Below are positions 9,000-24,003 of a stretch of 64,000 nt of DNA, one piece after another. The DNA is taken from the sequence record PQ310662.1; one strand, 5' to 3'. The DNA is from Escherichia phage Mimir124. Each line of letters opens with the position of its first letter. Within the stretch, counting starts at the first letter, position 1. The notes beneath the pieces are model-generated. The model searched no databases. It saw only the letters and a program-made list of their open reading frames with translations, and was not told the origin of the DNA. Both the position numbers and the translations under genes were made by a program.

Positions 9000-9030
9000 G
9001 ACCTCCCTATTGAAGGGAGGTCTTTTTTTT
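9000..9030 (+). terminator. rho-independent terminator
   Basis: gacctccc-tattgaa-gggaggtc followed by tttttttt. Confidence 0.7.
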
Positions 9031-9055
9031 GACTTAAACAAACTGGAGCCAGGAA

Positions 9056-9244
9056 ATGTATAAAGAGATTGCATTCTTCTCGTTCTTGTTAGGTGGGTTA
9101 ATTGGTGCAGGATTTGTAGCTATTTCTAATACCTACTTTGGTTCTACTCCAAACTCTGTAACGCAAACCCTCAAGCATGAATGTGAATTGAATATCCCTC
9201 GTAATCAAAGCTGCGTAATGCAGTTCGTACCGGAGAAGAAATGA
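9056..9244 (+). CDS. small membrane protein (62 aa)
   Basis: N-terminal TM segment (FFSFLLGGLIGAGFVAI). Confidence 0.35.
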   Translation: MYKEIAFFSFLLGGLIGAGFVAISNTYFGSTPNSVTQTLKHECELNIPRNQSCVMQFVPEKK

Positions 9245-9426
9245 AACTTACTCAGTCCCAAGCAATTTTCCTTCGCATGGTTCAAGGTGGTTCTGCCACC
9301 AGCAACCGTAATAACAAAACGGCACAGTCTCTTAAGAAGCTGGGCTTAGTACAGTTCAATGCTGGTCTTGGGTGGTCATTAACCCCTACCGGAGTACTTC
9401 AACTTAACGAATTAAAAGGTAACTAA
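9241..9426 (+). CDS. hypothetical small protein (61 aa)
   Basis: Coupled ORF (4-bp overlap). Confidence 0.35.
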   Translation: MKLTQSQAIFLRMVQGGSATSNRNNKTAQSLKKLGLVQFNAGLGWSLTPTGVLQLNELKGN

Positions 9427-9753
9427 ATGAAAACTTTAATTGCTGTTGTTCTAGTAGCTTTATCAGTTCTTTCATTCGGTGCTCAAGCATCTAGCCGTGC
9501 AACCTTATTGGAAGCTGCTGCTGATTACAAAGCCAATAATGCAAACTTTGTGAATCAGGGTTACTTCATGGGTATGGTTACTATGGGTGTGGAAGCAGGA
9601 AAAAATTGTGTACCTGACGATATGAAATTAGGGCACATTTTTGACAGAGTGGCATCTATTATTCTGTATGACCGAAAGGTTAATGCAGTAAAAGTACCAT
9701 CAGACATGATTTTGTTGGCGATTGATACAGCGTATCCCTGCGTTAAATCTTAA
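9427..9753 (+). CDS. secreted/periplasmic small protein with signal peptide
   Basis: MKTLIAVVLVALSVLSFGAQA-SS: positive n-region, hydrophobic core, AxA cleavage motif. Confidence 0.45.
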   Translation: MKTLIAVVLVALSVLSFGAQASSRATLLEAAADYKANNANFVNQGYFMGMVTMGVEAGKNCVPDDMKLGHIFDRVASIILYDRKVNAVKVPSDMILLAIDTAYPCVKS

Positions 9754-9787
9754 TTAGTAATTCCATTAACTTTAGGAGAGTAAGTAA

Positions 9788-10840
9788 ATGGCGAGCATTG
9801 ACTCCTTGACTGTATGTAATACACGCCAAGCCCGTAACTTTATTATCCGTGCCTTGCAAGCAGGTAACGTGCCGTTCCTGACTTCATCACCAGGCATGGG
9901 TAAGTCTGCAATTATCCGTTCTGTTGCAGATGAATTTGGTATGAAGCTGATTGACCATCGTCTGTCTACTTCTGCCCCAGAAGACTTATCTGGTCTGCCA
10001 TTCCGTAATGGTGACCGCGCAGAGTTTATCCCTTTTGCTGACTTATTCCCTATTGAGGGGGATGAAGTACCTGAAGGTTATAATGGCTGGCTCCTGTTCC
10101 TTGATGAGTTCAACTCAGCTAAGAAAGAAGTAGTAGCTGCTGCATACAAACTGATTCTCGACCGTATGACTGGTCAGAAGAAACTTCACCCTAATGTAAT
10201 GATTGTCTGTGCCGGTAACAAAGCTACTGACCGAGCCATCGTTAACCCACTGGGTACTGCAATGCAGTCCCGTGTTGTCCACTTCGAAATGGAACTTAAC
10301 TTCGACATCTTTGTTGAAGACGTAATGATTCCGCAAGAATGGGATGAGCGTCTGGTTGCATTCTTACATGCTAACCCTGGCTATCTGCACGACTTCGACC
10401 CTGCCCATAAGAACAAAACATTCTGTTGCCCTCGTACCTGGGACTTTGTTAACAAAGACCTTAAGAACCGACCAGAAGGCGCTCTTCCTGATGAAGATTC
10501 TATCTACTATGCAGGTCACGTTACTGCCGGTAAAGCTACAGAGTTTGTTCAGTTCACTCAGGTATACAATCGTATGATTACGATTGAGAAGGTAGTCAAA
10601 GACCCTTTGGGATGTACACTGCCTGAAGATAATAACCTGTGCTGGGCTACCGTTAACCATCTGGCTAACAAGACCACTGAAGATAACTTCGCTGATGTTC
10701 TTCAGTATATTGAACGCTTTAAAACGTTCACTCATAAGATTCTGTACTTCCGTACAGTAGGCAAAGCATTACCAGAAATTCAGGCTACCCCTGAATGGCG
10801 TAAGGCTGCTGCCAATATCTCTCGTTACATTCACGGATAA
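9788..10840 (+). CDS. MoxR-like AAA+ ATPase
   Basis: Walker A SPGMGKSAI, Walker B LLFLDEFN; 350 aa; VWA partner downstream. Confidence 0.7.
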   Translation: MASIDSLTVCNTRQARNFIIRALQAGNVPFLTSSPGMGKSAIIRSVADEFGMKLIDHRLSTSAPEDLSGLPFRNGDRAEFIPFADLFPIEGDEVPEGYNGWLLFLDEFNSAKKEVVAAAYKLILDRMTGQKKLHPNVMIVCAGNKATDRAIVNPLGTAMQSRVVHFEMELNFDIFVEDVMIPQEWDERLVAFLHANPGYLHDFDPAHKNKTFCCPRTWDFVNKDLKNRPEGALPDEDSIYYAGHVTAGKATEFVQFTQVYNRMITIEKVVKDPLGCTLPEDNNLCWATVNHLANKTTEDNFADVLQYIERFKTFTHKILYFRTVGKALPEIQATPEWRKAAANISRYIHG

Positions 10841-10847
10841 TCACATC

Positions 10848-11324
10848 ATGAACTGGAATGACTTGTTCACATACAGCAATGGTGCTCTTTACTGGAAAGT
10901 ATCTAGAGGCCGTGCACTAGCTGGGGCTGTTGCCGGGAGTGTGGACAATAGTGGATACGTTAGAGTCAAATGCTTCAAAAAGATGTACTTGGTTCACCGT
11001 ATAATCTATGAAATGGAAATCGGCCCAATCCCTGATGGCTACCAGGTAGACCATATTGACCATAACAGGTTAAATAACTACCCAAGTAACTTCCGTTTAG
11101 TCACCAATTTAGATAACTGCCGTAACCAAAAGAAAAGGATAACCAATTCTTCTGGTATTACAGGAGTCTATTGGCACTCCAGAGATGAAATATGGGCTGC
11201 TTCCATAAATGATAATGGTAAGCAAATTTATTTAGGAAAATTCCCTAGTAAAGAAGAAGCTGCTAAAGCCAGGAAAGAGGCTGAAAAGCTTATTGGTTAC
11301 CATAAAAATCATGGAGCACCTTAA
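10848..11324 (+). CDS. HNH homing endonuclease with AP2-like domain
   Basis: VDHIDHNRLNNYPSNFRLVTNLDN plus SGITGVYWH...AAKARKEAEKLIGY; paralog of 21725 ORF; inserted between ATPase and VWA genes. Confidence 0.7.
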   Translation: MNWNDLFTYSNGALYWKVSRGRALAGAVAGSVDNSGYVRVKCFKKMYLVHRIIYEMEIGPIPDGYQVDHIDHNRLNNYPSNFRLVTNLDNCRNQKKRITNSSGITGVYWHSRDEIWAASINDNGKQIYLGKFPSKEEAAKARKEAEKLIGYHKNHGAP

Positions 11325-12499
11325 TGAATAACATACCTACACATACCCTTACTGATGAACAGTTAATGAGGGAGTACGACAGGATCCAAGCCAACGCATT
11401 TCTTGGACGCAGCGCAGCGTTTTTTGGTTCATTGCTGTGTAGTCTTAAGTTCTCATGGAAACGTGAGGACTGTCCTACTGCATGTACCGATGGGATAGAA
11501 CTCCATTTCAACCCAGACTTCTTTATCTGGATGTGTCCCGATGCAAGAGAAACAGTGCTAATGCACGAACTCTGGCATGTGGCATATCTGCACGGCATCC
11601 GTTGTGGAAGCCGTGACCCGGAAGTCTGGAACCAGGCATGTGACCACTTCATCAACCTTCAGTTAGAAGAAGATGGTTACAAGTTCACTGGTATCGACAA
11701 AGGCATTTGCAAAGACCCTCAATATAAAGGATGGGTCGAAGAAGACATCTACGATGACCTGATGAAGAACCCTCAGAAAAGGCAGAAGCCGTCAGGGGGT
11801 GCTGGAGCAGGTCTTGCTGGCGACATGAAAGCTCCCTCTTCGGGGCAGTCCCAGGGTGCTGTTGTCAACAACGTAGTACGTGCAATGCAAAGCCAGAAGA
11901 TGGCTGGTGGAATGATGCCCGGTAAAGGTGCTGGTCGTATGGAAGAGGTAATTACCCAATTCCTTAAACCAGTGGTTCCTTGGCAGGAAGTCCTGCTGAA
12001 CTTCTTTACCGACATTGATGACACACACTATACGTGGGCCAGACCTAATCGTCGTTTCACTGACATCTATCTACCTTCTCTGGAAGATGATGAAGGACGC
12101 TTACGACACTTAGCTTACTTTGAGGATGTATCTGGTTCTATTAGTAGTGCTGACTCTCTGCGTTTTAACTCAGAGGTTGCCTACGTTAAGAGCCAGTTCA
12201 ATCCTAAGAAGATGACCCTTATTACCTTCGACGATATTATCCAAGAAGAAATAGACATCACTGAAGAAGATACTTTTGAAGAGATTAAGATTACCGGTCG
12301 TGGTGGTACAAACCTTGAACCAGTGCGTGAATGGATTATTAAGAATAAGCCAACCGCTGCAATCATATTCTCTGATATGTATGTTAAACCAATGGAAGAA
12401 TTACCATTTGATATCCCTATCATCTGGTGTGTTCTGAATAATCCCAATGCTACCGTACCTTTTGGGGAGGTAGTTCATATCCATAAAGGAATGAAATAA
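11324..12499 (+). CDS. VWA-like protein with HExxH motif (partner of AAA+ ATPase)
   Basis: MHELWHVAYLH motif in N-terminal part; C-terminal region with VWA-like alternation; pairing with MoxR-type ATPase. Confidence 0.45.
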   Translation: MNNIPTHTLTDEQLMREYDRIQANAFLGRSAAFFGSLLCSLKFSWKREDCPTACTDGIELHFNPDFFIWMCPDARETVLMHELWHVAYLHGIRCGSRDPEVWNQACDHFINLQLEEDGYKFTGIDKGICKDPQYKGWVEEDIYDDLMKNPQKRQKPSGGAGAGLAGDMKAPSSGQSQGAVVNNVVRAMQSQKMAGGMMPGKGAGRMEEVITQFLKPVVPWQEVLLNFFTDIDDTHYTWARPNRRFTDIYLPSLEDDEGRLRHLAYFEDVSGSISSADSLRFNSEVAYVKSQFNPKKMTLITFDDIIQEEIDITEEDTFEEIKITGRGGTNLEPVREWIIKNKPTAAIIFSDMYVKPMEELPFDIPIIWCVLNNPNATVPFGEVVHIHKGMK

Positions 12500-13005
12500 T
12501 GGTTGTTAACGGTAATTCTCTATATCGTTCGTCTCAATTGCTGGATGTACCAGACCGTAAGGTATCCGAGCATGGTGTAAGTTATGGGCTAGGTGAAGCC
12601 GGTTATGATATTCGTATCAAACAAGACATCACCTTCTATCGCTTATTTGGGTTGATTCCAATGGTGAAAATCGTTGATGGAAAACAAGTATCACGCCATC
12701 TCGGTAAATTCGCATTGGCTTCAGCAATTGAGAAGTTCAATATGTCCCCATCCTGTGTAGCTATCGTTCATGATAAATCCACATGGGCAAGACGTGCATT
12801 ATCAGTATTTAATACCGTAATAGAACCAGGGTGGAAAGGTTGGCTTACTTTAGAGCTTGTCTACCATGGTCGTAAGAAATTGCATATCCCGGCTGGTTCT
12901 GGGATAGCTCAAGTATTATTTCATCTGGTTCAAGAACCTGCTAATTACAATGGCAAGTATATGAACCAGGAAAACAAACCAGTAGCTGCTAGACCTTCAA
13001 AATAA
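12499..13005 (+). CDS. dCTP deaminase/dUTPase-fold protein
   Basis: GYDIRI and VIEPGWKGWLTLELV resemble dCTP deaminase motifs (GYDLR; IDPGfrG.l.lEl). Confidence 0.55.
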   Translation: MVVNGNSLYRSSQLLDVPDRKVSEHGVSYGLGEAGYDIRIKQDITFYRLFGLIPMVKIVDGKQVSRHLGKFALASAIEKFNMSPSCVAIVHDKSTWARRALSVFNTVIEPGWKGWLTLELVYHGRKKLHIPAGSGIAQVLFHLVQEPANYNGKYMNQENKPVAARPSK

Positions 13006-13035
13006 AAGGCTATCCGGCTTAGTCAAGGAAACAAT

Positions 13036-13236
13036 ATGTCAGTATTTCAAGTAACTCCTGTTGGCAGTACTATGCGTAAAACTATTGTTGCAACTAACGT
13101 AGTAGACGTAGATGAAACTCCGGCAGGTGCTGTAATTCGTCTGATTGATGGACGTTCAGTATATGTAGAAGAAAGTTATCGTTCAGTACGTGGTTATATT
13201 CGCAAAGCCATGACTACCGCTTCTGACGCAGAGTAA
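13036..13236 (+). CDS. hypothetical protein (66 aa)
   Basis: ORF with GGAAAC upstream. Confidence 0.4.
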   Translation: MSVFQVTPVGSTMRKTIVATNVVDVDETPAGAVIRLIDGRSVYVEESYRSVRGYIRKAMTTASDAE

Positions 13237-13273
13237 GTAGCTGCCTAAATAGCCCAGCATAATTGGGCTATTT

Positions 13274-13570
13274 GTGAAGAAACTAACTCAACCCTACATA
13301 GGAACCATCATGGAATCTTTAGCAGCAATCCTCGTTCTGTTATTCGCACTAGCTGTATACCTTATCCCTACTATTATTGCTTTTACACGAGGCCATGCCT
13401 CTAAGTGGGGTATTGGTGTACTCAATATCGTATTAGGCTGGTCTTTAGTCTTCTGGGTAGTAGCACTGATTTGGTCACTGTCTAATAAAGGACAGTCTCA
13501 GACTACAATCGTTAACGTTGGTAGTGGTAATCAGTACAACGTGTCTCAAACGAGCCAGTCTGATAAGTAA
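13274..13570 (+). CDS. superinfection-immunity-like small membrane protein
   Basis: IPTIIAFTRGH...LNIVLGWSLVFWVVALIWSL resembles the Imm-type two-TM signature; true start may be the internal M (MESLAA). Confidence 0.4.
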   Translation: MKKLTQPYIGTIMESLAAILVLLFALAVYLIPTIIAFTRGHASKWGIGVLNIVLGWSLVFWVVALIWSLSNKGQSQTTIVNVGSGNQYNVSQTSQSDK

Positions 13571-21724: not shown

Positions 21725-22204
21725 ATGCATAATTGGAATGAAATACTTACCTACTCTAACGGTAAGCTGTACTGGGCAATAAAACCGAAACGGGGTACAC
21801 AAATAGGTGACCCCGTGGGAAATCCGAATAAAAACGGGTATTTACGTTTTCAATATAAAGGAAAACATTATTTAGTCCACCGCATTGTGTGGGAAATGCA
21901 CTATGGAGAAATACCCATGGGAATGCAGGTAGACCACATATGGCATAACAAGCTAGATAATAGGATAGAGAATCTTAGGTTAGTGACTCCTCTGGATAAC
22001 CAGAGAAACAGAAGTAAAGCTCCAAAAAATACATCAGGAGTTACAGGTGTATGTTGGAGCAAACCAAGTGCTAAGTGGTTAGCGAGTATAACTGTTAAGG
22101 GTATTCGTAAACACTTAGGAATGTTTGACAATATAGAGGATGCTGCAAAAGCCCGTAAGCAAGCAGAATTGCTTTACGGATTCCATCCTAATCACGGTAA
22201 ATAA
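21725..22204 (+). CDS. HNH homing endonuclease with AP2-like domain
   Basis: VDHIWHNKLDNRIENLRLVTPLDNQRN plus SGVTGVCW...AAKARKQAELLYGF; N-terminus parallels the 10848 ORF. Confidence 0.7.
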   Translation: MHNWNEILTYSNGKLYWAIKPKRGTQIGDPVGNPNKNGYLRFQYKGKHYLVHRIVWEMHYGEIPMGMQVDHIWHNKLDNRIENLRLVTPLDNQRNRSKAPKNTSGVTGVCWSKPSAKWLASITVKGIRKHLGMFDNIEDAAKARKQAELLYGFHPNHGK

Positions 22205-22692: not shown

Positions 22693-24003
22693 ATGTTTTC
22701 CAAACCTACCAAAGCCCCATTGAACCAGGGGCAAGAAGCGGTTGCGAAGGAGTTCTTCGACTTCCTGCTCGACCCTAATGCCACAGAGTTCGGAATCAGT
22801 GGACCTGGAGGAACTGGTAAGACATTCCTGATGTCGCACCTGATTGATGACACTATGCCTGCATATATGGAAACCTGTTCTTTGATGGGAACCAAGCCTC
22901 TGTATAACGAAGTTGTCATGACAGCGACCACGAACAAAGCTGCTGAAGTTCTGGCTCAAGCTACGGGGCGTCCAACCTCTACCTATCATTCCTTCCAGGG
23001 ACTGATTGTTAAGAATGACTTTAAGACGGGTGAGGCTAATGTCGTACCTTCTAAATCATTCACTATTAAGAAGAACAAGATTATCTTCGTAGATGAAGCA
23101 TCCATGATTGACCGTCAGTTACTTAAGTATGCTCGTGAAGGTACTCACCAGTGCAAACTGGTATTCGTAGGTGATGCTTCTCAGCTTCTGCCTGTTAAAG
23201 AGAGTAAGTCTCCAGTGTATGCAGGTAATATCCCAACACACTATCTGACCGAACAGATGCGTACTGATACACCAGAACTCAAAGCATTGCACCAGCAATT
23301 GCGTGATACGGTGGAAGGTAAGACAGGCTTCCTGCCTATTAAATGTATTCCAGGCATTATTGACTGGGTGCAGGGAGAAGAGATGGAGAAACTGGTTCTC
23401 AGTCACTTCACTCAGCCTACCAATAGCCGTATTGTTGCTTACACAAATGACCAGGTTATTAATTACAATAACTACATACGTGAAGCTAACGGATATGTGG
23501 GTGAATACTCCATTGGCGAACAGTTAGTCTCTAACTCAGCCGTTCGCTTGGGCGTGGATGACCGTCTGTCTATCGAGCAGGACGTAAAACTCATTGACCA
23601 GGATAGCAGTACTCGCATGATTAAAGTTACAGGTGACCTGGAACTGGAAGTCCGTGACAGTACTCTAGACCTTGGCTATGGTGGTATTGTAAGTGAAGTA
23701 CCAGTTCCTACCGACCCAGACTACTTCAACCGTTTAGTTAAGTGGTTAGGTAAAGAGAAGAACTGGGAACCTTACTTCCGTCTTAAAGAAACCATTCCAG
23801 ACCTTCGTGCTACCCATGCATGTACTGTTCATAAATCACAAGGCTCTACTTACGACACAATCTTTATTGATGCAAATGACCTCTCAAGCTGTCGCCAACC
23901 TGATATGGTTGCCCGTCTGCTTTACGTCGCTGTGTCTCGTGCACGTAAGCGTGTAGTGTTCTATGGAAATCTCGCCAGTAAGTACGGTGGTCTAACTTTC
24001 TAA
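22693..24003 (+). CDS. Dda/RecD-like superfamily 1 DNA helicase
   Basis: Walker A GPGGTGKTF, FVDEASM (Walker B), GDASQLLPV, TVHKSQGSTYD, AVSRARKRV. Confidence 0.75.
   Translation: MFSKPTKAPLNQGQEAVAKEFFDFLLDPNATEFGISGPGGTGKTFLMSHLIDDTMPAYMETCSLMGTKPLYNEVVMTATTNKAAEVLAQATGRPTSTYHSFQGLIVKNDFKTGEANVVPSKSFTIKKNKIIFVDEASMIDRQLLKYAREGTHQCKLVFVGDASQLLPVKESKSPVYAGNIPTHYLTEQMRTDTPELKALHQQLRDTVEGKTGFLPIKCIPGIIDWVQGEEMEKLVLSHFTQPTNSRIVAYTNDQVINYNNYIREANGYVGEYSIGEQLVSNSAVRLGVDDRLSIEQDVKLIDQDSSTRMIKVTGDLELEVRDSTLDLGYGGIVSEVPVPTDPDYFNRLVKWLGKEKNWEPYFRLKETIPDLRATHACTVHKSQGSTYDTIFIDANDLSSCRQPDMVARLLYVAVSRARKRVVFYGNLASKYGGLTF

What the first reader, a model, noticed from the sequence alone, without database searches (positions are those of the whole stretch)
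9788..12499. MoxR-like AAA+ ATPase and VWA/HExxH protein pair interrupted by a homing endonuclease
AAA+ plus VWA pairs are a conserved two-component module of unclear role in N4-like phages. Here the partner carries an HExxH-like motif (MHELWHVAYLH), suggesting a metal-dependent activity, and the pair has been split by an HNH gene. The function of this module during infection is not settled.
Basis: partly seen in the sequence, partly recalled or inferred. Interest (0 to 1): 0.4.

Follow-up and report, generated by a model that had tools for sequence, protein, structure and literature searches.

The report
Phage ATPase and metalloprotease-VWA gene pair
This is the already-catalogued core gene pair of N4-like phages (gp24 AAA+ ATPase plus gp25 zinc-protease/VWA protein) with a selfish homing-endonuclease gene slotted between them; the annotation is right and the pair's job in infection is still unknown, but nothing here is new in kind.

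Summary
The window is a G7C-like coliphage (Gamaleyavirus, Schitoviridae). ORFs 9788-10840, 10848-11324 and 11324-12499 are orthologues of N4 gp24, G7C gp24.1 and N4 gp25.

- gp24 is an intact AAA+ ATPase. Its nearest structural relatives are dynein, Midasin, CbbQ and NorQ.
- gp25 combines an N-terminal zincin domain (Pfam DUF2201_N, 2e-54) with a compact VWA domain (DUF2201). HExxH, D107 and a full MIDAS (DxSGS, T, D) are invariant down to 23% identity across six phage lineages.
- The HNH-AP2 gene is a free-standing homing endonuclease sitting in the 7-nt gp24-gp25 spacer. It breaks neither gene and is absent from most close relatives. It is flanked on one side by a mostly synonymous divergence patch in the first ~95 nt of gp25.

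The pair was already listed among N4-like core genes. The architecture (MoxR ATPase plus metallopeptidase-vWA) was described for jumbo phages in 2021.

The most likely mechanism, which is inferred, is a MoxR/VWA-type remodelling machine whose adaptor carries a protease. The client is unknown.

Useful extras: inteins at the invariant ACD motif and a probable intron at Walker B in relatives, and a widespread "HNH endonuclease" mislabel on gp25 homologues. Interest is low to moderate.

The parts
9000..9022 (+). Intrinsic-terminator-like hairpin that closes the upstream gp17 unit. No comparably strong terminator-like site (only two weak pattern matches inside gp25) follows until after 13236, so gp17.1 through gp27 form one packed co-directional block.
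   Evidence: 9-bp stem, 6 GC pairs, T8 tail. Equivalent sites are annotated as stem_loop or terminator in G7C, PhAPEC7 and SP5M.
9788..10840 (+). gp24 orthologue: a single-module AAA+ ATPase of the dynein/midasin/MoxR clade (350 aa) with a helical C-terminal region.
9890..9907 (+). Walker A (P-loop), residues 35-40 PGMGKS.
   Evidence: Alignment A3: P35, G38, K39 and S40 are invariant.
9950..10087 (+). Conserved segment between strand 2 and the Walker B strand (residues ~55-100, IDHRLSTSAPEDLSGLP...F.PF..LFP). This is the position of the helix-2 insert that defines the MoxR clade.
   Evidence: D56, H57, R58, T61, S62, P64, D66, G69 and P71 are invariant. The segment aligns to the equivalent region of Midasin AAA modules. 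The same motif is present in jumbo-phage and archaeal-MAG homologues. It is poorly modelled, with pLDDT below 50 at residues 64-79.
10103..10108 (+). Walker B D106-E107. In phage U1G this is the exact site of an ~880-nt intron-like insertion.
   Evidence: Invariant in A3. For the U1G split at LFL|DEF.
10841..10847 (+). 7-nt spacer TCACATC. This is the original gp24-gp25 spacer and start context, now serving the HNH ORF.
   Evidence: Junction alignment with PhAPEC7: TAA-TCACAAC-ATGAAC there begins gp25, while TAA-TCACATC-ATGAAC here begins the HNH ORF.
10848..11324 (+). Free-standing HNH-AP2 homing endonuclease gene (158 aa, G7C gp24.1 type). Its TAA stop overlaps the gp25 ATG (TAATG), and its 3' end supplies a GGAG Shine-Dalgarno sequence 7 nt upstream of that ATG.
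   Evidence: Pfam HNH_3 at 9e-19 and AP2 at 9e-9. PADLOC 'HEase' at 4e-11. It is absent from SP5M and PhAPEC7 and from most of the 58 related records. Its nearest alleles are only 81.5% (UE phages) and 77% (G7C) identical at the protein level.
11324..12499 (+). gp25 orthologue: a zincin-VWA protein (391 aa). Its stop overlaps the dCTP deaminase ATG (TAATG).
   Evidence: ORF. Pfam DUF2201_N plus DUF2201 in 38/38 homologues. Annotated as an N4 gp25 homologue in G7C and PhAPEC7.
11324..11420 (+). Divergence patch adjacent to the HNH gene. This is the probable homing-endonuclease target or co-conversion tract.
   Evidence: Codons 1-40 differ from SP5M at 31 of 120 nt (15 synonymous and 5 non-synonymous codon changes). 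The remaining 351 codons differ at 31 of 1053 nt. The last 120 nt of gp24 differ at only 1-2 positions.
11372..12082 (+). N-terminal zincin-like metallopeptidase domain (aa 17-253). It includes a low-complexity Gly/Ala/Ser linker (~aa 150-180) and an invariant but poorly modelled W-x-R-P-N-R-R...Y-L-P segment (aa 238-251).
   Evidence: Pfam DUF2201_N at 2.1e-54. An N-domain-only profile hits only zincins in the PDB: MJ1213 minigluzincin at 0.005, HtpX at 0.02, then BepA, projannalysin and an M48 peptidase. In the model there are three strands, then helix 72-87 carrying HExxH, then helix 99-116 carrying D107.
11564..11578 (+). HExxH motif (H81-E82-L-W-H85).
   Evidence: Invariant in A2 (38 sequences), A4 (8 sequences at 23-46% identity) and A5 (11 sequences).
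11636..11644 (+). A105-C106-D107 motif on the helix after the HExxH helix. D107 is a candidate third metal ligand or catalytic residue. Inteins sit at A105|C106 in two metagenomic homologues.
   Evidence: A105 and D107 are invariant in A2, A4 and A5. Inteins are seen in P0250 and P0244.
12110..12481 (+). Compact VWA domain (aa 263-386) with a complete MIDAS: D268-x-S270-G-S272 (nt 12125-12139), T329 and D351.

Best explanation
gp24 and gp25 are the two halves of a MoxR/VWA-type protein-remodelling machine in which the VWA adaptor also carries a zinc metalloprotease. The HNH gene between them is an unrelated selfish insertion.

Shown here:
- gp24 is an AAA+ ATPase of the dynein/midasin/MoxR branch, with every catalytic motif conserved.
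- gp25 is a minimal zincin (M48/minigluzincin-like) fused to a VWA domain.
- HExxH, an ACD motif and a full MIDAS are invariant across very distant phages.
- The two genes co-occur, and are usually adjacent, in at least seven viral lineages.

Inferred by analogy with NorQ/NorD, CbbQ/CbbO and Midasin:
- A gp24 hexamer binds one gp25 through its VWA domain.
- The MIDAS metal grips an acidic residue or extended peptide of a client protein.
- ATP hydrolysis remodels or partly unfolds the client.
- The tethered zincin domain cuts it.

The pair sits in the middle-gene block, next to dCTP deaminase and ThyX and a few kb from the RNAP II subunit gene, rather than in the late structural module. I therefore favour a non-virion client (host-takeover or replication-phase processing) over head maturation, but the client is unknown.

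The HNH-AP2 ORF is a free-standing homing endonuclease. It landed exactly on gp25's start codon and uses gp25's former ribosome-binding context. It hands translation back to gp25 through a TAATG overlap with its own GGAG. It probably cleaves HNH-less alleles within the first ~95 nt of gp25.
For: Domain identities:
- Pfam.
- An N-domain profile hits only zincins in the PDB.

Motif invariance:
- gp24: Walker A, Walker B, sensor 1, R162 and R216.
- gp25: HExxH, D107 and DxSGS-T-D in 38 close and 7 very distant homologues.

Independent marks of functional importance:
- Both genes are N4-like core genes.
- Inteins sit at the ACD motif.
- An intron-like insert sits at Walker B in U1G.

Linkage:
- gp25-like proteins occur in 693 phage records and gp24-like in 830, across the same taxa.
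- The genes are directly adjacent in Gamaleyavirus, a Vibrio schitovirus, a 121Q-like jumbo phage and an archaeal-MAG contig.
- One ORF separates them in Litunavirus and Baltimorevirus.
- They lie ~3.6 kb apart in rV5-like phages.

Mechanistic precedent:
- NorQD forms a 6:1 ring with a VWA plug, and its MIDAS binds target carboxylates.
- Definition of the MoxR-vWA couple.
- ATV p618/p892 interact, and p892 stimulates the ATPase.

HNH:
- Presence/absence polymorphism.
- Exact junction.
- One-sided, mostly synonymous divergence patch.
- A second HNH lineage (57% aa identity) occupies the same site in PD38 and Bp4.

Middle-gene timing:
- PMC4193335.
- The PEV2 annotation notes early RNA-seq transcription of neighbouring genes.
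Against: - No experiment on any member of this family was found. Peptidase activity, ATPase activity, complex formation and essentiality are all untested.
- Searches of the two recent phage Tn-seq preprints for N4-like terms found nothing relevant.
- The third zinc ligand is unresolved (H90 or D107).
- The helix-2 insert region is modelled at low confidence.
- The inter-domain arrangement of gp25 is uncertain (pTM 0.55).
- Adjacency is not universal (rV5-like phages).
- Genomic position is weak evidence for the client class. The virion decoration gene gp17 lies in the same region, and the jumbo-phage copy is flanked by structural genes.
Confidence: 0.6

Rival explanations
1. Virion-morphogenesis chaperone/protease. 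The pair folds, assembles and proteolytically processes structural or ejected proteins (for example the giant virion RNA polymerase or tail components). Iyer et al. proposed this for the same architecture in jumbo phages, by analogy with ATV p618/p892.
For: - The proposal is published for MoxR plus metallopeptidase-vWA in group 2.2 jumbo phages (PMC7824862).
- ATV p618/p892 interact and are tied to tail development.
- The 121Q-like copy is flanked by genes annotated as structural.
- gp17, a decoration protein, lies just upstream in this window.
- BFVD finds the same two-domain protein in PBS1/AR9-type phages, which to my knowledge (not checked here), like N4, package an RNA polymerase, and a metallopeptidase-domain protein (260 aa) in a crAss-like virus.
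Against: - In Schitoviridae the pair always sits in the middle or replication block (dCTP deaminase, ThyX, helicase, DNA polymerase), not with the portal, capsid and terminase genes.
- N4 gp24 and gp25 are described as middle transcripts.
- They do not appear among the virion proteins listed in PMC4193335.
- rV5-like and 121Q-like phages have the pair, and I know of no virion RNA polymerase in them (my knowledge, not checked here).
Confidence: 0.22
2. Metal-cofactor insertion or enzyme activation without proteolysis. The pair would act like NorQ/NorD, CoxD/CoxE, CbbQ/CbbO or CobS/CobT and activate a phage or host metalloenzyme. The HExxH domain would be only a target-binding or metal-handling module.
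For: - Several well-characterised bacterial MoxR/VWA pairs (NorQ/NorD, CbbQ/CbbO, CoxD/CoxE, chelatases) are maturation or activation factors.
- Seven homologues also touch Pfam VWA_CoxE.
- BFVD lists a 'cobalamin biosynthesis protein' phage hit at 8e-5.
- A cyanophage homologue of gp24 is annotated as a MoxR-like ATPase.
- The neighbours are nucleotide-metabolism enzymes.
Against: - None of the characterised chelatase or activase adaptors considered here is known to me to carry an HExxH zincin domain.
- Absolute invariance of H-E-x-x-H, including the catalytic Glu, across 23-95% identity argues for catalysis rather than mere binding.
- No consistent metalloenzyme neighbour is shared across lineages.
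Confidence: 0.1
3. The HNH protein is a working third subunit of the module (for example a nuclease recruited by the ATPase), not a selfish element.
For: - It is translationally coupled to gp25 and sits inside the operon.
- A nuclease-like ORF also lies just upstream of the gp25-like gene in the unrelated jumbo phage MIJ3.
- Other lineages have a small ORF at the same position.
Against: - It is absent from the closest relatives (SP5M at 95% nt identity, and PhAPEC7) and from most Gamaleyavirus records, where gp24 and gp25 are separated by 7 nt.
- The family occurs in 2,107 phage records at many unrelated loci, often in several copies.
- A 51% paralogue lies elsewhere in this window.
- The intervening ORFs of PEV2 and DFL12phi1 are neither HNH proteins nor related to each other.
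- The flanking synonymous divergence patch is a homing signature.
Confidence: 0.03

Closest known systems
Escherichia phage N4 gp24 / gp25, and G7C gp24 / gp24.1 / gp25
   Same: These are orthologues. The gene order is the same (RNAP2, gp17, small ORFs, gp24, gp25, dCTP deaminase, ThyX). Nucleotide identity to G7C is 91%, including an HNH gene at the same site. Protein identity to an N4-type Enquatrovirus (AlfredRasser) is about 61%. Both genes are listed among the core genes of N4-like phages.
   Different: The HNH allele is only 77-81.5% identical at the protein level to the known ones, whereas the flanks are closest (95% nt) to the HNH-less phage SP5M. There is no functional difference to report, since none of these proteins has been characterised.
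MoxR AAA+ plus metallopeptidase-vWA 'chaperone-cochaperone' pair of group 2.2 jumbo phages (Iyer, Anantharaman, Krishnan, Burroughs, Aravind 2021; PMC7824862)
   Same: It has the same two-gene architecture and the same families. The 121Q-like phage Ecwhy_1 has a gp24 homologue (hhalign 99.9%) directly upstream of a DUF2201_N+DUF2201 protein. HExxH and MIDAS are conserved.
   Different: The jumbo-phage proteins are longer (442 and 469 aa), only about 25-30% identical, and flanked by genes annotated as structural. That paper did not discuss N4-like phages as far as the passages I read show.
NorQ/NorD and CbbQ/CbbO (bacterial MoxR/VWA remodelling pairs)
   Different: Their adaptors have no peptidase domain and they activate metalloenzymes. 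The VWA of gp25 is much smaller (~125 aa). gp24 has a ~170-aa helical C-terminal extension. Sequence similarity is undetectable by HMMER.
Acidianus two-tailed virus p618 (MoxR) / p892 (VWA)
   Same: It is a viral MoxR/VWA pair with demonstrated interaction and ATPase stimulation. ORF892 is a Foldseek hit of gp25 through the VWA domain (E 2e-5).
   Different: p618 is a major virion protein and p892 has no zincin domain. It is an archaeal virus and the function is tied to extracellular tail growth.
M48 peptidases and minigluzincins (HtpX, BepA, selecase/MJ1213, projannalysin)
   Same: These are the only solved structures hit by the gp25 N-domain profile. The alignment runs through the strand plus loop plus 'xxVLxHExxH' active-site helix. 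A PA5oct-like homologue also touches Pfam Peptidase_M48.
   Different: E-values are marginal (0.005-0.3) and coverage is about 40 residues. The downstream ACD/N111 helix and the W-x-RPNRR segment have no counterpart in those hits.
Free-standing HNH-AP2 homing endonucleases of T1-like, T5-like and other phages (G7C annotates its copy as similar to EndZ of phage TLS)
   Same: It has the HNH_3 plus AP2 architecture and an intergenic position between conserved genes, with sporadic distribution and multiple copies per genome.
   Different: The target is presumed to be the gp25 5' end. Cleavage specificity is untested.

Membership tests
MoxR clade of AAA+ ATPases (dynein-midasin / MoxR / YifB / chelatase; definition quoted from Kaur et al. 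2020) | Complete AAA+ catalytic set: Walker A, Walker B, sensor 1, arginine finger and sensor 2 | tested here: met
   G38-K39-S40, D106-E107, N144, R162 and R216 are invariant in 36 homologues at 50-97% identity.
MoxR clade of AAA+ ATPases (dynein-midasin / MoxR / YifB / chelatase; definition quoted from Kaur et al. 2020) | Distinctive insert in helix 2 of the AAA+ core | tested here: inconclusive
   A ~42-residue, extremely conserved segment lies between strand 2 and the Walker B strand. phmmer aligns it to the same region of Midasin modules, and the motif recurs in distant homologues. However, the model there has pLDDT below 50 and only two 2-residue strands, so a hairpin insert is plausible but not demonstrated.
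MoxR clade of AAA+ ATPases (dynein-midasin / MoxR / YifB / chelatase; definition quoted from Kaur et al. 2020) | Nearest sequence and structure relatives lie inside the clade | tested here: met
MoxR clade of AAA+ ATPases (dynein-midasin / MoxR / YifB / chelatase; definition quoted from Kaur et al. 2020) | Genomic association with a VWA-domain partner | tested here: met
   The genes are adjacent or near-adjacent in Gamaleyavirus, Litunavirus, Pariacacavirus, Baltimorevirus, Asteriusvirus and an archaeal-MAG contig. They lie within 3.6 kb in Vequintavirus.
MoxR clade of AAA+ ATPases (dynein-midasin / MoxR / YifB / chelatase; definition quoted from Kaur et al. 2020) | Hexameric ring with ATPase activity modulated by the VWA partner | not testable with these tools
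   This needs biochemistry or a multimer prediction. Both structure-prediction slots were used for the monomers.
VWA / MIDAS domain | Rossmann-like VWA fold | tested here: met
VWA / MIDAS domain | MIDAS motif DxSxS ... T ... D | tested here: met
   D268, S270, S272, T329 and D351 are invariant in A2 (38 sequences) and A4 (8 sequences down to 23% identity).
VWA / MIDAS domain | Metal-dependent binding of an acidic ligand | not testable with these tools
   Not tested.
Zincin metallopeptidase (Pfam DUF2201_N; M48/minigluzincin-like) | HExxH on an alpha-helix | tested here: met
   H81-E82-x-x-H85 lies within predicted helix 72-87, where pLDDT is about 90. The motif is invariant in all alignments.
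Zincin metallopeptidase (Pfam DUF2201_N; M48/minigluzincin-like) | Third zinc ligand on a downstream element | tested here: inconclusive
   There are two candidates. H90 is nearly invariant (D in a few sequences). D107 is invariant, lies on the next long helix 99-116, and sits next to the intein insertion site. I had no access to coordinates to measure geometry.
Zincin metallopeptidase (Pfam DUF2201_N; M48/minigluzincin-like) | Zincin fold (mixed sheet plus active-site helix) recognisable against solved peptidases | tested here: inconclusive
Zincin metallopeptidase (Pfam DUF2201_N; M48/minigluzincin-like) | Peptidase activity | not testable with these tools
   No experimental paper on DUF2201 proteins was found.
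Free-standing HNH homing endonuclease | HNH nuclease core plus a DNA-binding module | tested here: met
   HNH_3 at 9e-19 (aa 47-90) and AP2 at 9e-9 (aa 102-141). PADLOC HEase at 4e-11.
Free-standing HNH homing endonuclease | Presence/absence polymorphism at one locus among close relatives | tested here: met
   It is present in G7C and four UE phages. A 57%-identical lineage occupies the same site in PD38 and Bp4. It is absent in SP5M, PhAPEC7 and most of the 58 records.
Free-standing HNH homing endonuclease | Sequence divergence of the presumed target next to the insertion in endonuclease-carrying genomes | tested here: met
   Nucleotide divergence is 26% in gp25 codons 1-40 (3:1 synonymous) versus 2.9% in the rest of the gene, and about 1-2% in the last 120 nt of gp24.
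Free-standing HNH homing endonuclease | Site-specific cleavage and super-Mendelian inheritance | not testable with these tools
   Not tested.
MoxR-vWA ternary conflict (defence) systems of Kaur et al. 2020 | A third conserved component (VMAP, iSTAND, FtsH or beta-propeller) and effector domains | tested here: not met
   The Pfam bpMoxR hit is far below its cutoff (13.4 vs 27 bits). No defence-system model in PADLOC matches gp24 or gp25 with any confidence (only a 12.5-bit DolB match to gp24, E 0.016; the HNH ORF matches the generic 'HEase' models). No conserved third gene exists: the intervening ORFs differ between lineages.

The most novel reading that the evidence does not exclude
gp24 and gp25 constitute a distinct, essential class of two-component AAA+ protease: a MoxR ring plus a detachable MIDAS-targeted zincin adaptor. 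This machine would cut one specific client early or midway through infection, for example a host replication or transcription factor, or the injected virion RNA polymerase once early transcription is done. It would be widespread, with about 22,000 protein clusters at 50% identity in public data. Three kinds of selfish elements (free-standing HNH, intron at Walker B, inteins at the ACD motif) home into it, which would mark it as indispensable.
Probability: 0.3. Interest if true: 0.6.

Novelty: already known. Interest (0 to 1): 0.25.

Why it matters
gp24 and gp25 are two of the roughly fourteen genes shared by all N4-like phages. The same pair recurs in rV5-like, 121Q-like, PA5oct-like, PBS1-like and cyanophage genomes, and the family holds about 22,000 clusters at 50% identity. 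Yet no experiment addresses its role.

Showing that it is an ATP-driven, MIDAS-targeted protease, and finding its client, would fill one of the last blanks in the N4 core genome. It would also add a new architecture to the AAA+ protease repertoire.

In practical terms, the analysis shows that the common database label 'HNH endonuclease' on gp25 homologues is wrong and should be replaced by 'zincin-VWA protein (N4 gp25-like)'.

For this particular window nothing is new in kind. It is a well-annotated locus in a new G7C-like isolate or contig.

Tried and rejected
- Full-length sequence and profile searches of both proteins against the PDB gave only marginal hits: Midasin, PspF and the integrin I domain.
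- The AFDB50 library was not available, and no prediction slot remained for the isolated N-domain.
- NCBIfam had no model for gp24 or gp25. PADLOC returned only a marginal DolB match for gp24 (12.5 bits, E 0.016) and nothing for gp25.
- Rfam found no RNA element in 9000-13500 apart from a terminator-like suhB fragment, so the HNH here is not intron-borne.
- The genome-collection scan meant to find cellular homologues returned mainly ~70-75 kb phage contigs binned into MAGs. Whether bona fide cellular DUF2201 proteins pair with MoxR ATPases was therefore not established.
- I first assumed that the 'anti-sigma factor' next to the rV5-like zincin-VWA gene was the ATPase. hhalign rejected this (probability 0.2%). 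The real gp24 homologue is 3.6 kb away.
- I asked whether the small ORFs between gp24 and gp25 in Litunavirus and Baltimorevirus were a lost third subunit. They have no HNH domain and no mutual similarity.
- Searches of the two recent phage Tn-seq preprints for N4-like/Schitoviridae terms found nothing relevant.
- A full-text search for DUF2201 found only incidental mentions.
- A SprT/Wss1-like DNA-protein-crosslink protease reading was considered because of the replication-gene neighbourhood. Nothing supports it: the profile hits are M48/minigluzincin, and no DNA-binding domain was found.

Full report
**What is there**

The window is a G7C-like coliphage (Gamaleyavirus, Schitoviridae). Region 9700-12600 is 91% identical to G7C over its whole length. 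It is 94-95% identical to SP5M, E20 and PhAPEC7 over about 84% of its length.

Three co-directional ORFs occupy exactly the stated coordinates:
- 9788-10840 (350 aa)
- 10848-11324 (158 aa)
- 11324-12499 (391 aa)

In the G7C record they are gp24 ('similar to N4 gp24'), gp24.1 (HNH homing endonuclease, 'similar to EndZ of TLS') and gp25 ('similar to N4 gp25'). They lie in one tightly packed block. The block starts after a strong terminator at 9000-9022 and runs through dCTP deaminase (12499-13005) without a credible terminator. Several stop/start overlaps of the TAATG type occur in it.

**The ATPase (gp24)**

Family hits:
- Pfam gives only a generic AAA hit above threshold, with sub-threshold AAA_5 and bpMoxR hits.
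- PHROG 1297 'ATPase' matches at 3e-134.

In 36 homologues at 50-97% identity, Walker A (G38-K39-S40), Walker B (D106-E107), sensor 1 (N144), R162 and R216 are invariant. So is a long segment between strand 2 and the Walker B strand, IDHRLSTSAPEDLSGLP...F.PF.

More distant homologues pass the Pfam AAA_5 cutoff (PEV2 gp33; the archaeal-MAG contig L011). Some sources annotate homologues as 'MoxR-like ATPase'.

I therefore accept 'MoxR-like' in the clade sense of Kaur et al. 2020. Two caveats apply:
- The clade-defining helix-2 insert is only plausibly present, because that region is modelled at low confidence.

**The partner (gp25)**

Pfam assigns aa 17-253 to DUF2201_N ('putative metallopeptidase', 2e-54) and aa 263-386 to DUF2201 ('VWA-like', 1.6e-34). 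All 38 aligned homologues have both domains.

Invariant residues in that alignment (48-95% identity) include the following:
- H81, E82 and H85, with H90 nearly invariant
- A105 and D107, with C106 nearly invariant
- W238, R243 and R244
- the full MIDAS set: D268-x-S270-G271-S272, T329 and D351

I then aligned homologues at 23-46% identity. They came from Litunavirus (PEV2), Pariacacavirus (a Vibrio phage), Baltimorevirus (DFL12phi1), Asteriusvirus (a 121Q-like jumbo phage), Wroclawvirus (a PA5oct-like jumbo phage), Vequintavirus (rV5-like) and an N4-like block on a Mesorhizobium contig. H81, E82, H85, A105, D107, N111, R243, D268, S270, S272, G328, T329 and D351 remain invariant.

The model (pLDDT 76; N-domain about 90, VWA about 80) has three parts:
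- three short strands followed by helix 72-87 carrying HExxH and helix 99-116 carrying D107
- a low-complexity linker
- a compact alpha/beta domain

As a substitute I built an N-domain-only profile from 11 divergent homologues. All 11 PDB hits were zincin peptidases: the minigluzincin MJ1213 (0.005), HtpX (0.02), BepA, projannalysin and an M48 peptidase. The alignments run through the strand-loop-'VLxHExxH' element. These hits are weak but consistent.

The third metal ligand (H90 or D107) is unresolved.

**Independent marks of importance**

The exhaustive search counts 22,326 cluster representatives (50% identity) at E <= 1e-3, and 5,701 at <= 1e-30.

Two of the best hits are much longer than gp25. 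Both contain inteins inserted at exactly the same place, WNxA|C[...]HN|CDxxINN, which is between A105 and C106 of the invariant ACD motif.

In phage U1G the gp24 gene is split precisely at Walker B (GWLLFL | DEFNSA) by about 880 nt that encode another HNH protein. That insert gives a sub-threshold but full-length Rfam group I intron match, including the GAUAUAGUC core (23.7 bits, E 0.0015).

Inteins and introns characteristically sit in the most conserved, functionally critical codons of important genes. This agrees with both genes being listed among the ~14 core genes of N4-like phages (PMC4193335, PMC7650795).

**Linkage of the two genes**

tblastn finds gp25-like genes in 693 phage records and gp24-like genes in 830, in the same groups of phages. 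The arrangement by lineage is:

| Lineage | Arrangement |
|---|---|
| HNH-less Gamaleyavirus | 7-nt spacer |
| Vibrio schitovirus | directly adjacent |
| 121Q-like jumbo phage (partner ATPase is a true gp24 homologue, hhalign 99.9%) | directly adjacent |
| Marine archaeal-MAG contig of non-N4 type (hhalign 99.7%, AAA_5 above cutoff) | directly adjacent |
| Litunavirus and Baltimorevirus (intervening ORFs unrelated, not HNH) | separated by one ORF |
| rV5-like phages | ~3.6 kb apart on opposite strands |

For rV5-like phages, my initial guess that the adjacent 'anti-sigma factor' was the ATPase was wrong.

BFVD shows the same two-domain protein in cyanophage S-TIM5, Bacillus phage PBS1, roseophages and many uncultured phages. 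It also hits a metallopeptidase-domain protein (260 aa) of a crAss-like virus, and ATV ORF892 through the VWA domain.

**The HNH gene**

The ORF has HNH_3 plus AP2 domains. The junction alignment shows how it sits:
- In HNH-less phages, gp24's TAA is followed by TCACAAC and then the ATGAAC of gp25.
- In this window the same TAA-TCACATC-ATGAAC begins the HNH ORF.
- gp25 restarts 476 nt later from a TAATG overlap preceded by GGAG.

Neither flanking gene is altered in length.

The element is polymorphic:
- It is present in G7C and four UE phages, at 77-81.5% protein identity to this allele.
- A 57%-identical lineage occupies the same site in PD38 and, as an apparently frameshifted copy, in Bp4.
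- It is absent from SP5M, PhAPEC7 and most other relatives.

The flanks tell the usual homing story. The last 120 nt of gp24 differ from HNH-less relatives at 1-2 positions. The first 40 codons of gp25 differ at 25-31 of 120 nt, with about 3:1 synonymous to non-synonymous codon changes. The remaining 351 codons differ at about 3%. The likely reading is that the endonuclease recognises the 5' end of gp25 in naive genomes, and that carriers are protected, or were co-converted, across roughly nt 11324-11420.

The family is abundant (2,107 phage records, often several copies per genome). A 51% paralogue sits at 21725-22204 in this window.

**How it most likely works**

Shown here are the domain identities, the motif conservation, the linkage and the mobile-element behaviour. 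The rest is inferred.

The inference rests on three precedents:
- In NorQ/NorD, a MoxR hexamer binds one adaptor whose VWA domain plugs the pore. The MIDAS binds carboxylates on the target, and the N-terminal domain gives specificity (PMC9976466).
- The general MoxR-vWA couple.
- ATV p618/p892.

On that basis I propose that a gp24 ring drives a gp25 adaptor. The MIDAS of gp25 captures an acidic residue or peptide of a client, and its N-terminal zincin then cleaves the client. The invariant, low-confidence W-x-RPNRR...YLP segment just before the VWA domain is a candidate ring-engaging element. This last point is speculative.

Which client is cut is unknown. Iyer et al. (PMC7824862) proposed virion assembly and processing for the same architecture in jumbo phages. 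In Schitoviridae the genes sit with middle-phase nucleotide-metabolism and replication genes and are described as middle transcripts. That tilts me towards a non-virion client, but only weakly.

**Comparison and novelty**

The locus is orthologous to an already annotated one (G7C gp24, gp24.1, gp25). The core-gene status is published, the domain families exist in Pfam, and the MoxR plus metallopeptidase-vWA pairing has been described for phages. It is not a member of the MoxR-vWA ternary defence systems: there is no third component and no meaningful PADLOC match to gp24 or gp25. I rate it 'already known'.

The residual value lies in four points:
- the documented invariance of the catalytic and MIDAS residues across very distant phages
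- the intein, intron and homing-endonuclease targeting
- the mapping of the probable homing target
- the recognition that many database records call gp25 homologues 'HNH endonuclease', a label inherited from PHROG 1314, although they contain no HNH domain

**Limits**

- No experiment exists for this family.
- Complex formation, ATPase and peptidase activity, and essentiality could not be tested.
- The zincin fold and the helix-2 insert are supported but not proven.
- Cellular (non-viral) contexts of DUF2201 proteins were not resolved.

Noticed in passing
L016:2649-3824 (SP5M PP763_gp29); L017:2432-3658 (PEV2); L018:2474-3604; L019:2390-3634; PHROG 1314: gp25 homologues are labelled 'HNH endonuclease' in many RefSeq and GenBank phage records and in PHROG 1314. 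They contain only DUF2201_N and DUF2201 (zincin plus VWA) and no HNH domain. This is probably an annotation error propagated from genomes where a real HNH gene sits next door.
   Followed up: partly
L003:2589-4523 (Escherichia phage U1G): The gp24 ATPase gene is split exactly at Walker B (GWLLFL | DEFNSA) by about 880 nt carrying a different HNH ORF. The Rfam group I intron model matches full length at 23.7 bits (E 0.0015, below the gathering score of 50), including the GAUAUAGUC core. This is likely a self-splicing intron in a core gene.
   Followed up: partly
P0250 (701 aa) and P0244 (519 aa), metagenomic gp25 homologues: Both carry inteins (Pfam Intein_splicing / Vint) inserted at the identical position between A105 and C106 of the invariant WNxA|CD motif. 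C106 serves as the +1 nucleophile.
   Followed up: partly
L007:4854-12279 (Mesorhizobium yinganensis, 727-kb contig) and L006 (Roseococcus MAG, 297-kb contig): An N4-like gene block (gp24-like, gp25-like, dCTP deaminase, then thymidylate synthase) lies inside a large Mesorhizobium contig; the Roseococcus contig carries a gp25-like match whose neighbours were not annotated. This is either an integrated or carried N4-like element, which is unusual for a group regarded as strictly lytic, or an assembly chimera.
   Followed up: partly
window 9427-9753 (+): A 108-aa ORF with an N-terminal signal peptide sits immediately upstream of gp24. It has a weak Pfam Rap1a hit (T6SS amidase immunity; 18.3 bits, below the cutoff of 27.7). 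Homologues in the UE phages and Moonfish are annotated Tai4/Rap1a. A phage-borne T6SS immunity protein would be interesting if real.
   Followed up: partly
window 21725-22204 (+): A second HNH_3 endonuclease ORF (159 aa), 51% identical to the gp24.1-type HNH. It lies between a 118-aa ORF and a 150-aa ORF, just upstream of a RecD/PIF1-like helicase (22693-24003).
   Followed up: partly
L004:2556-5265 (Escherichia phage Bp4): The record shows frameshift-split gp24, a split HNH (57% lineage) and a split gp25 within 3 kb. This is more likely sequencing error than triple pseudogenisation.
   Followed up: no
L014:1919-3415 (Pseudomonas phage MIJ3, PA5oct-like): A 498-aa ORF annotated 'HNH homing endonuclease III' (only weak MTES_1575/Vsr-type nuclease hits) lies directly upstream of the gp25-like gene, with the AAA ATPase four genes further up. 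This is another mobile-nuclease-like insertion next to this module in an unrelated phage.
   Followed up: partly
L020:1834-8131 (Escherichia phage MaxBurger, rV5-like): The gp24-like 'MoxR ATPase' and the zincin-VWA gene are about 3.6 kb apart on opposite strands, near rIIA/rIIB. The 'anti-sigma factor' adjacent to the zincin-VWA gene is not an AAA+ protein (hhalign probability 0.2%) and its label is unverified.
   Followed up: partly
window 13274-13570 (+): A 98-aa membrane ORF matches Pfam Imm_superinfect (1.2e-16), the T4 Imm-type superinfection immunity protein. It is also annotated in G7C as gp27.1.
   Followed up: no
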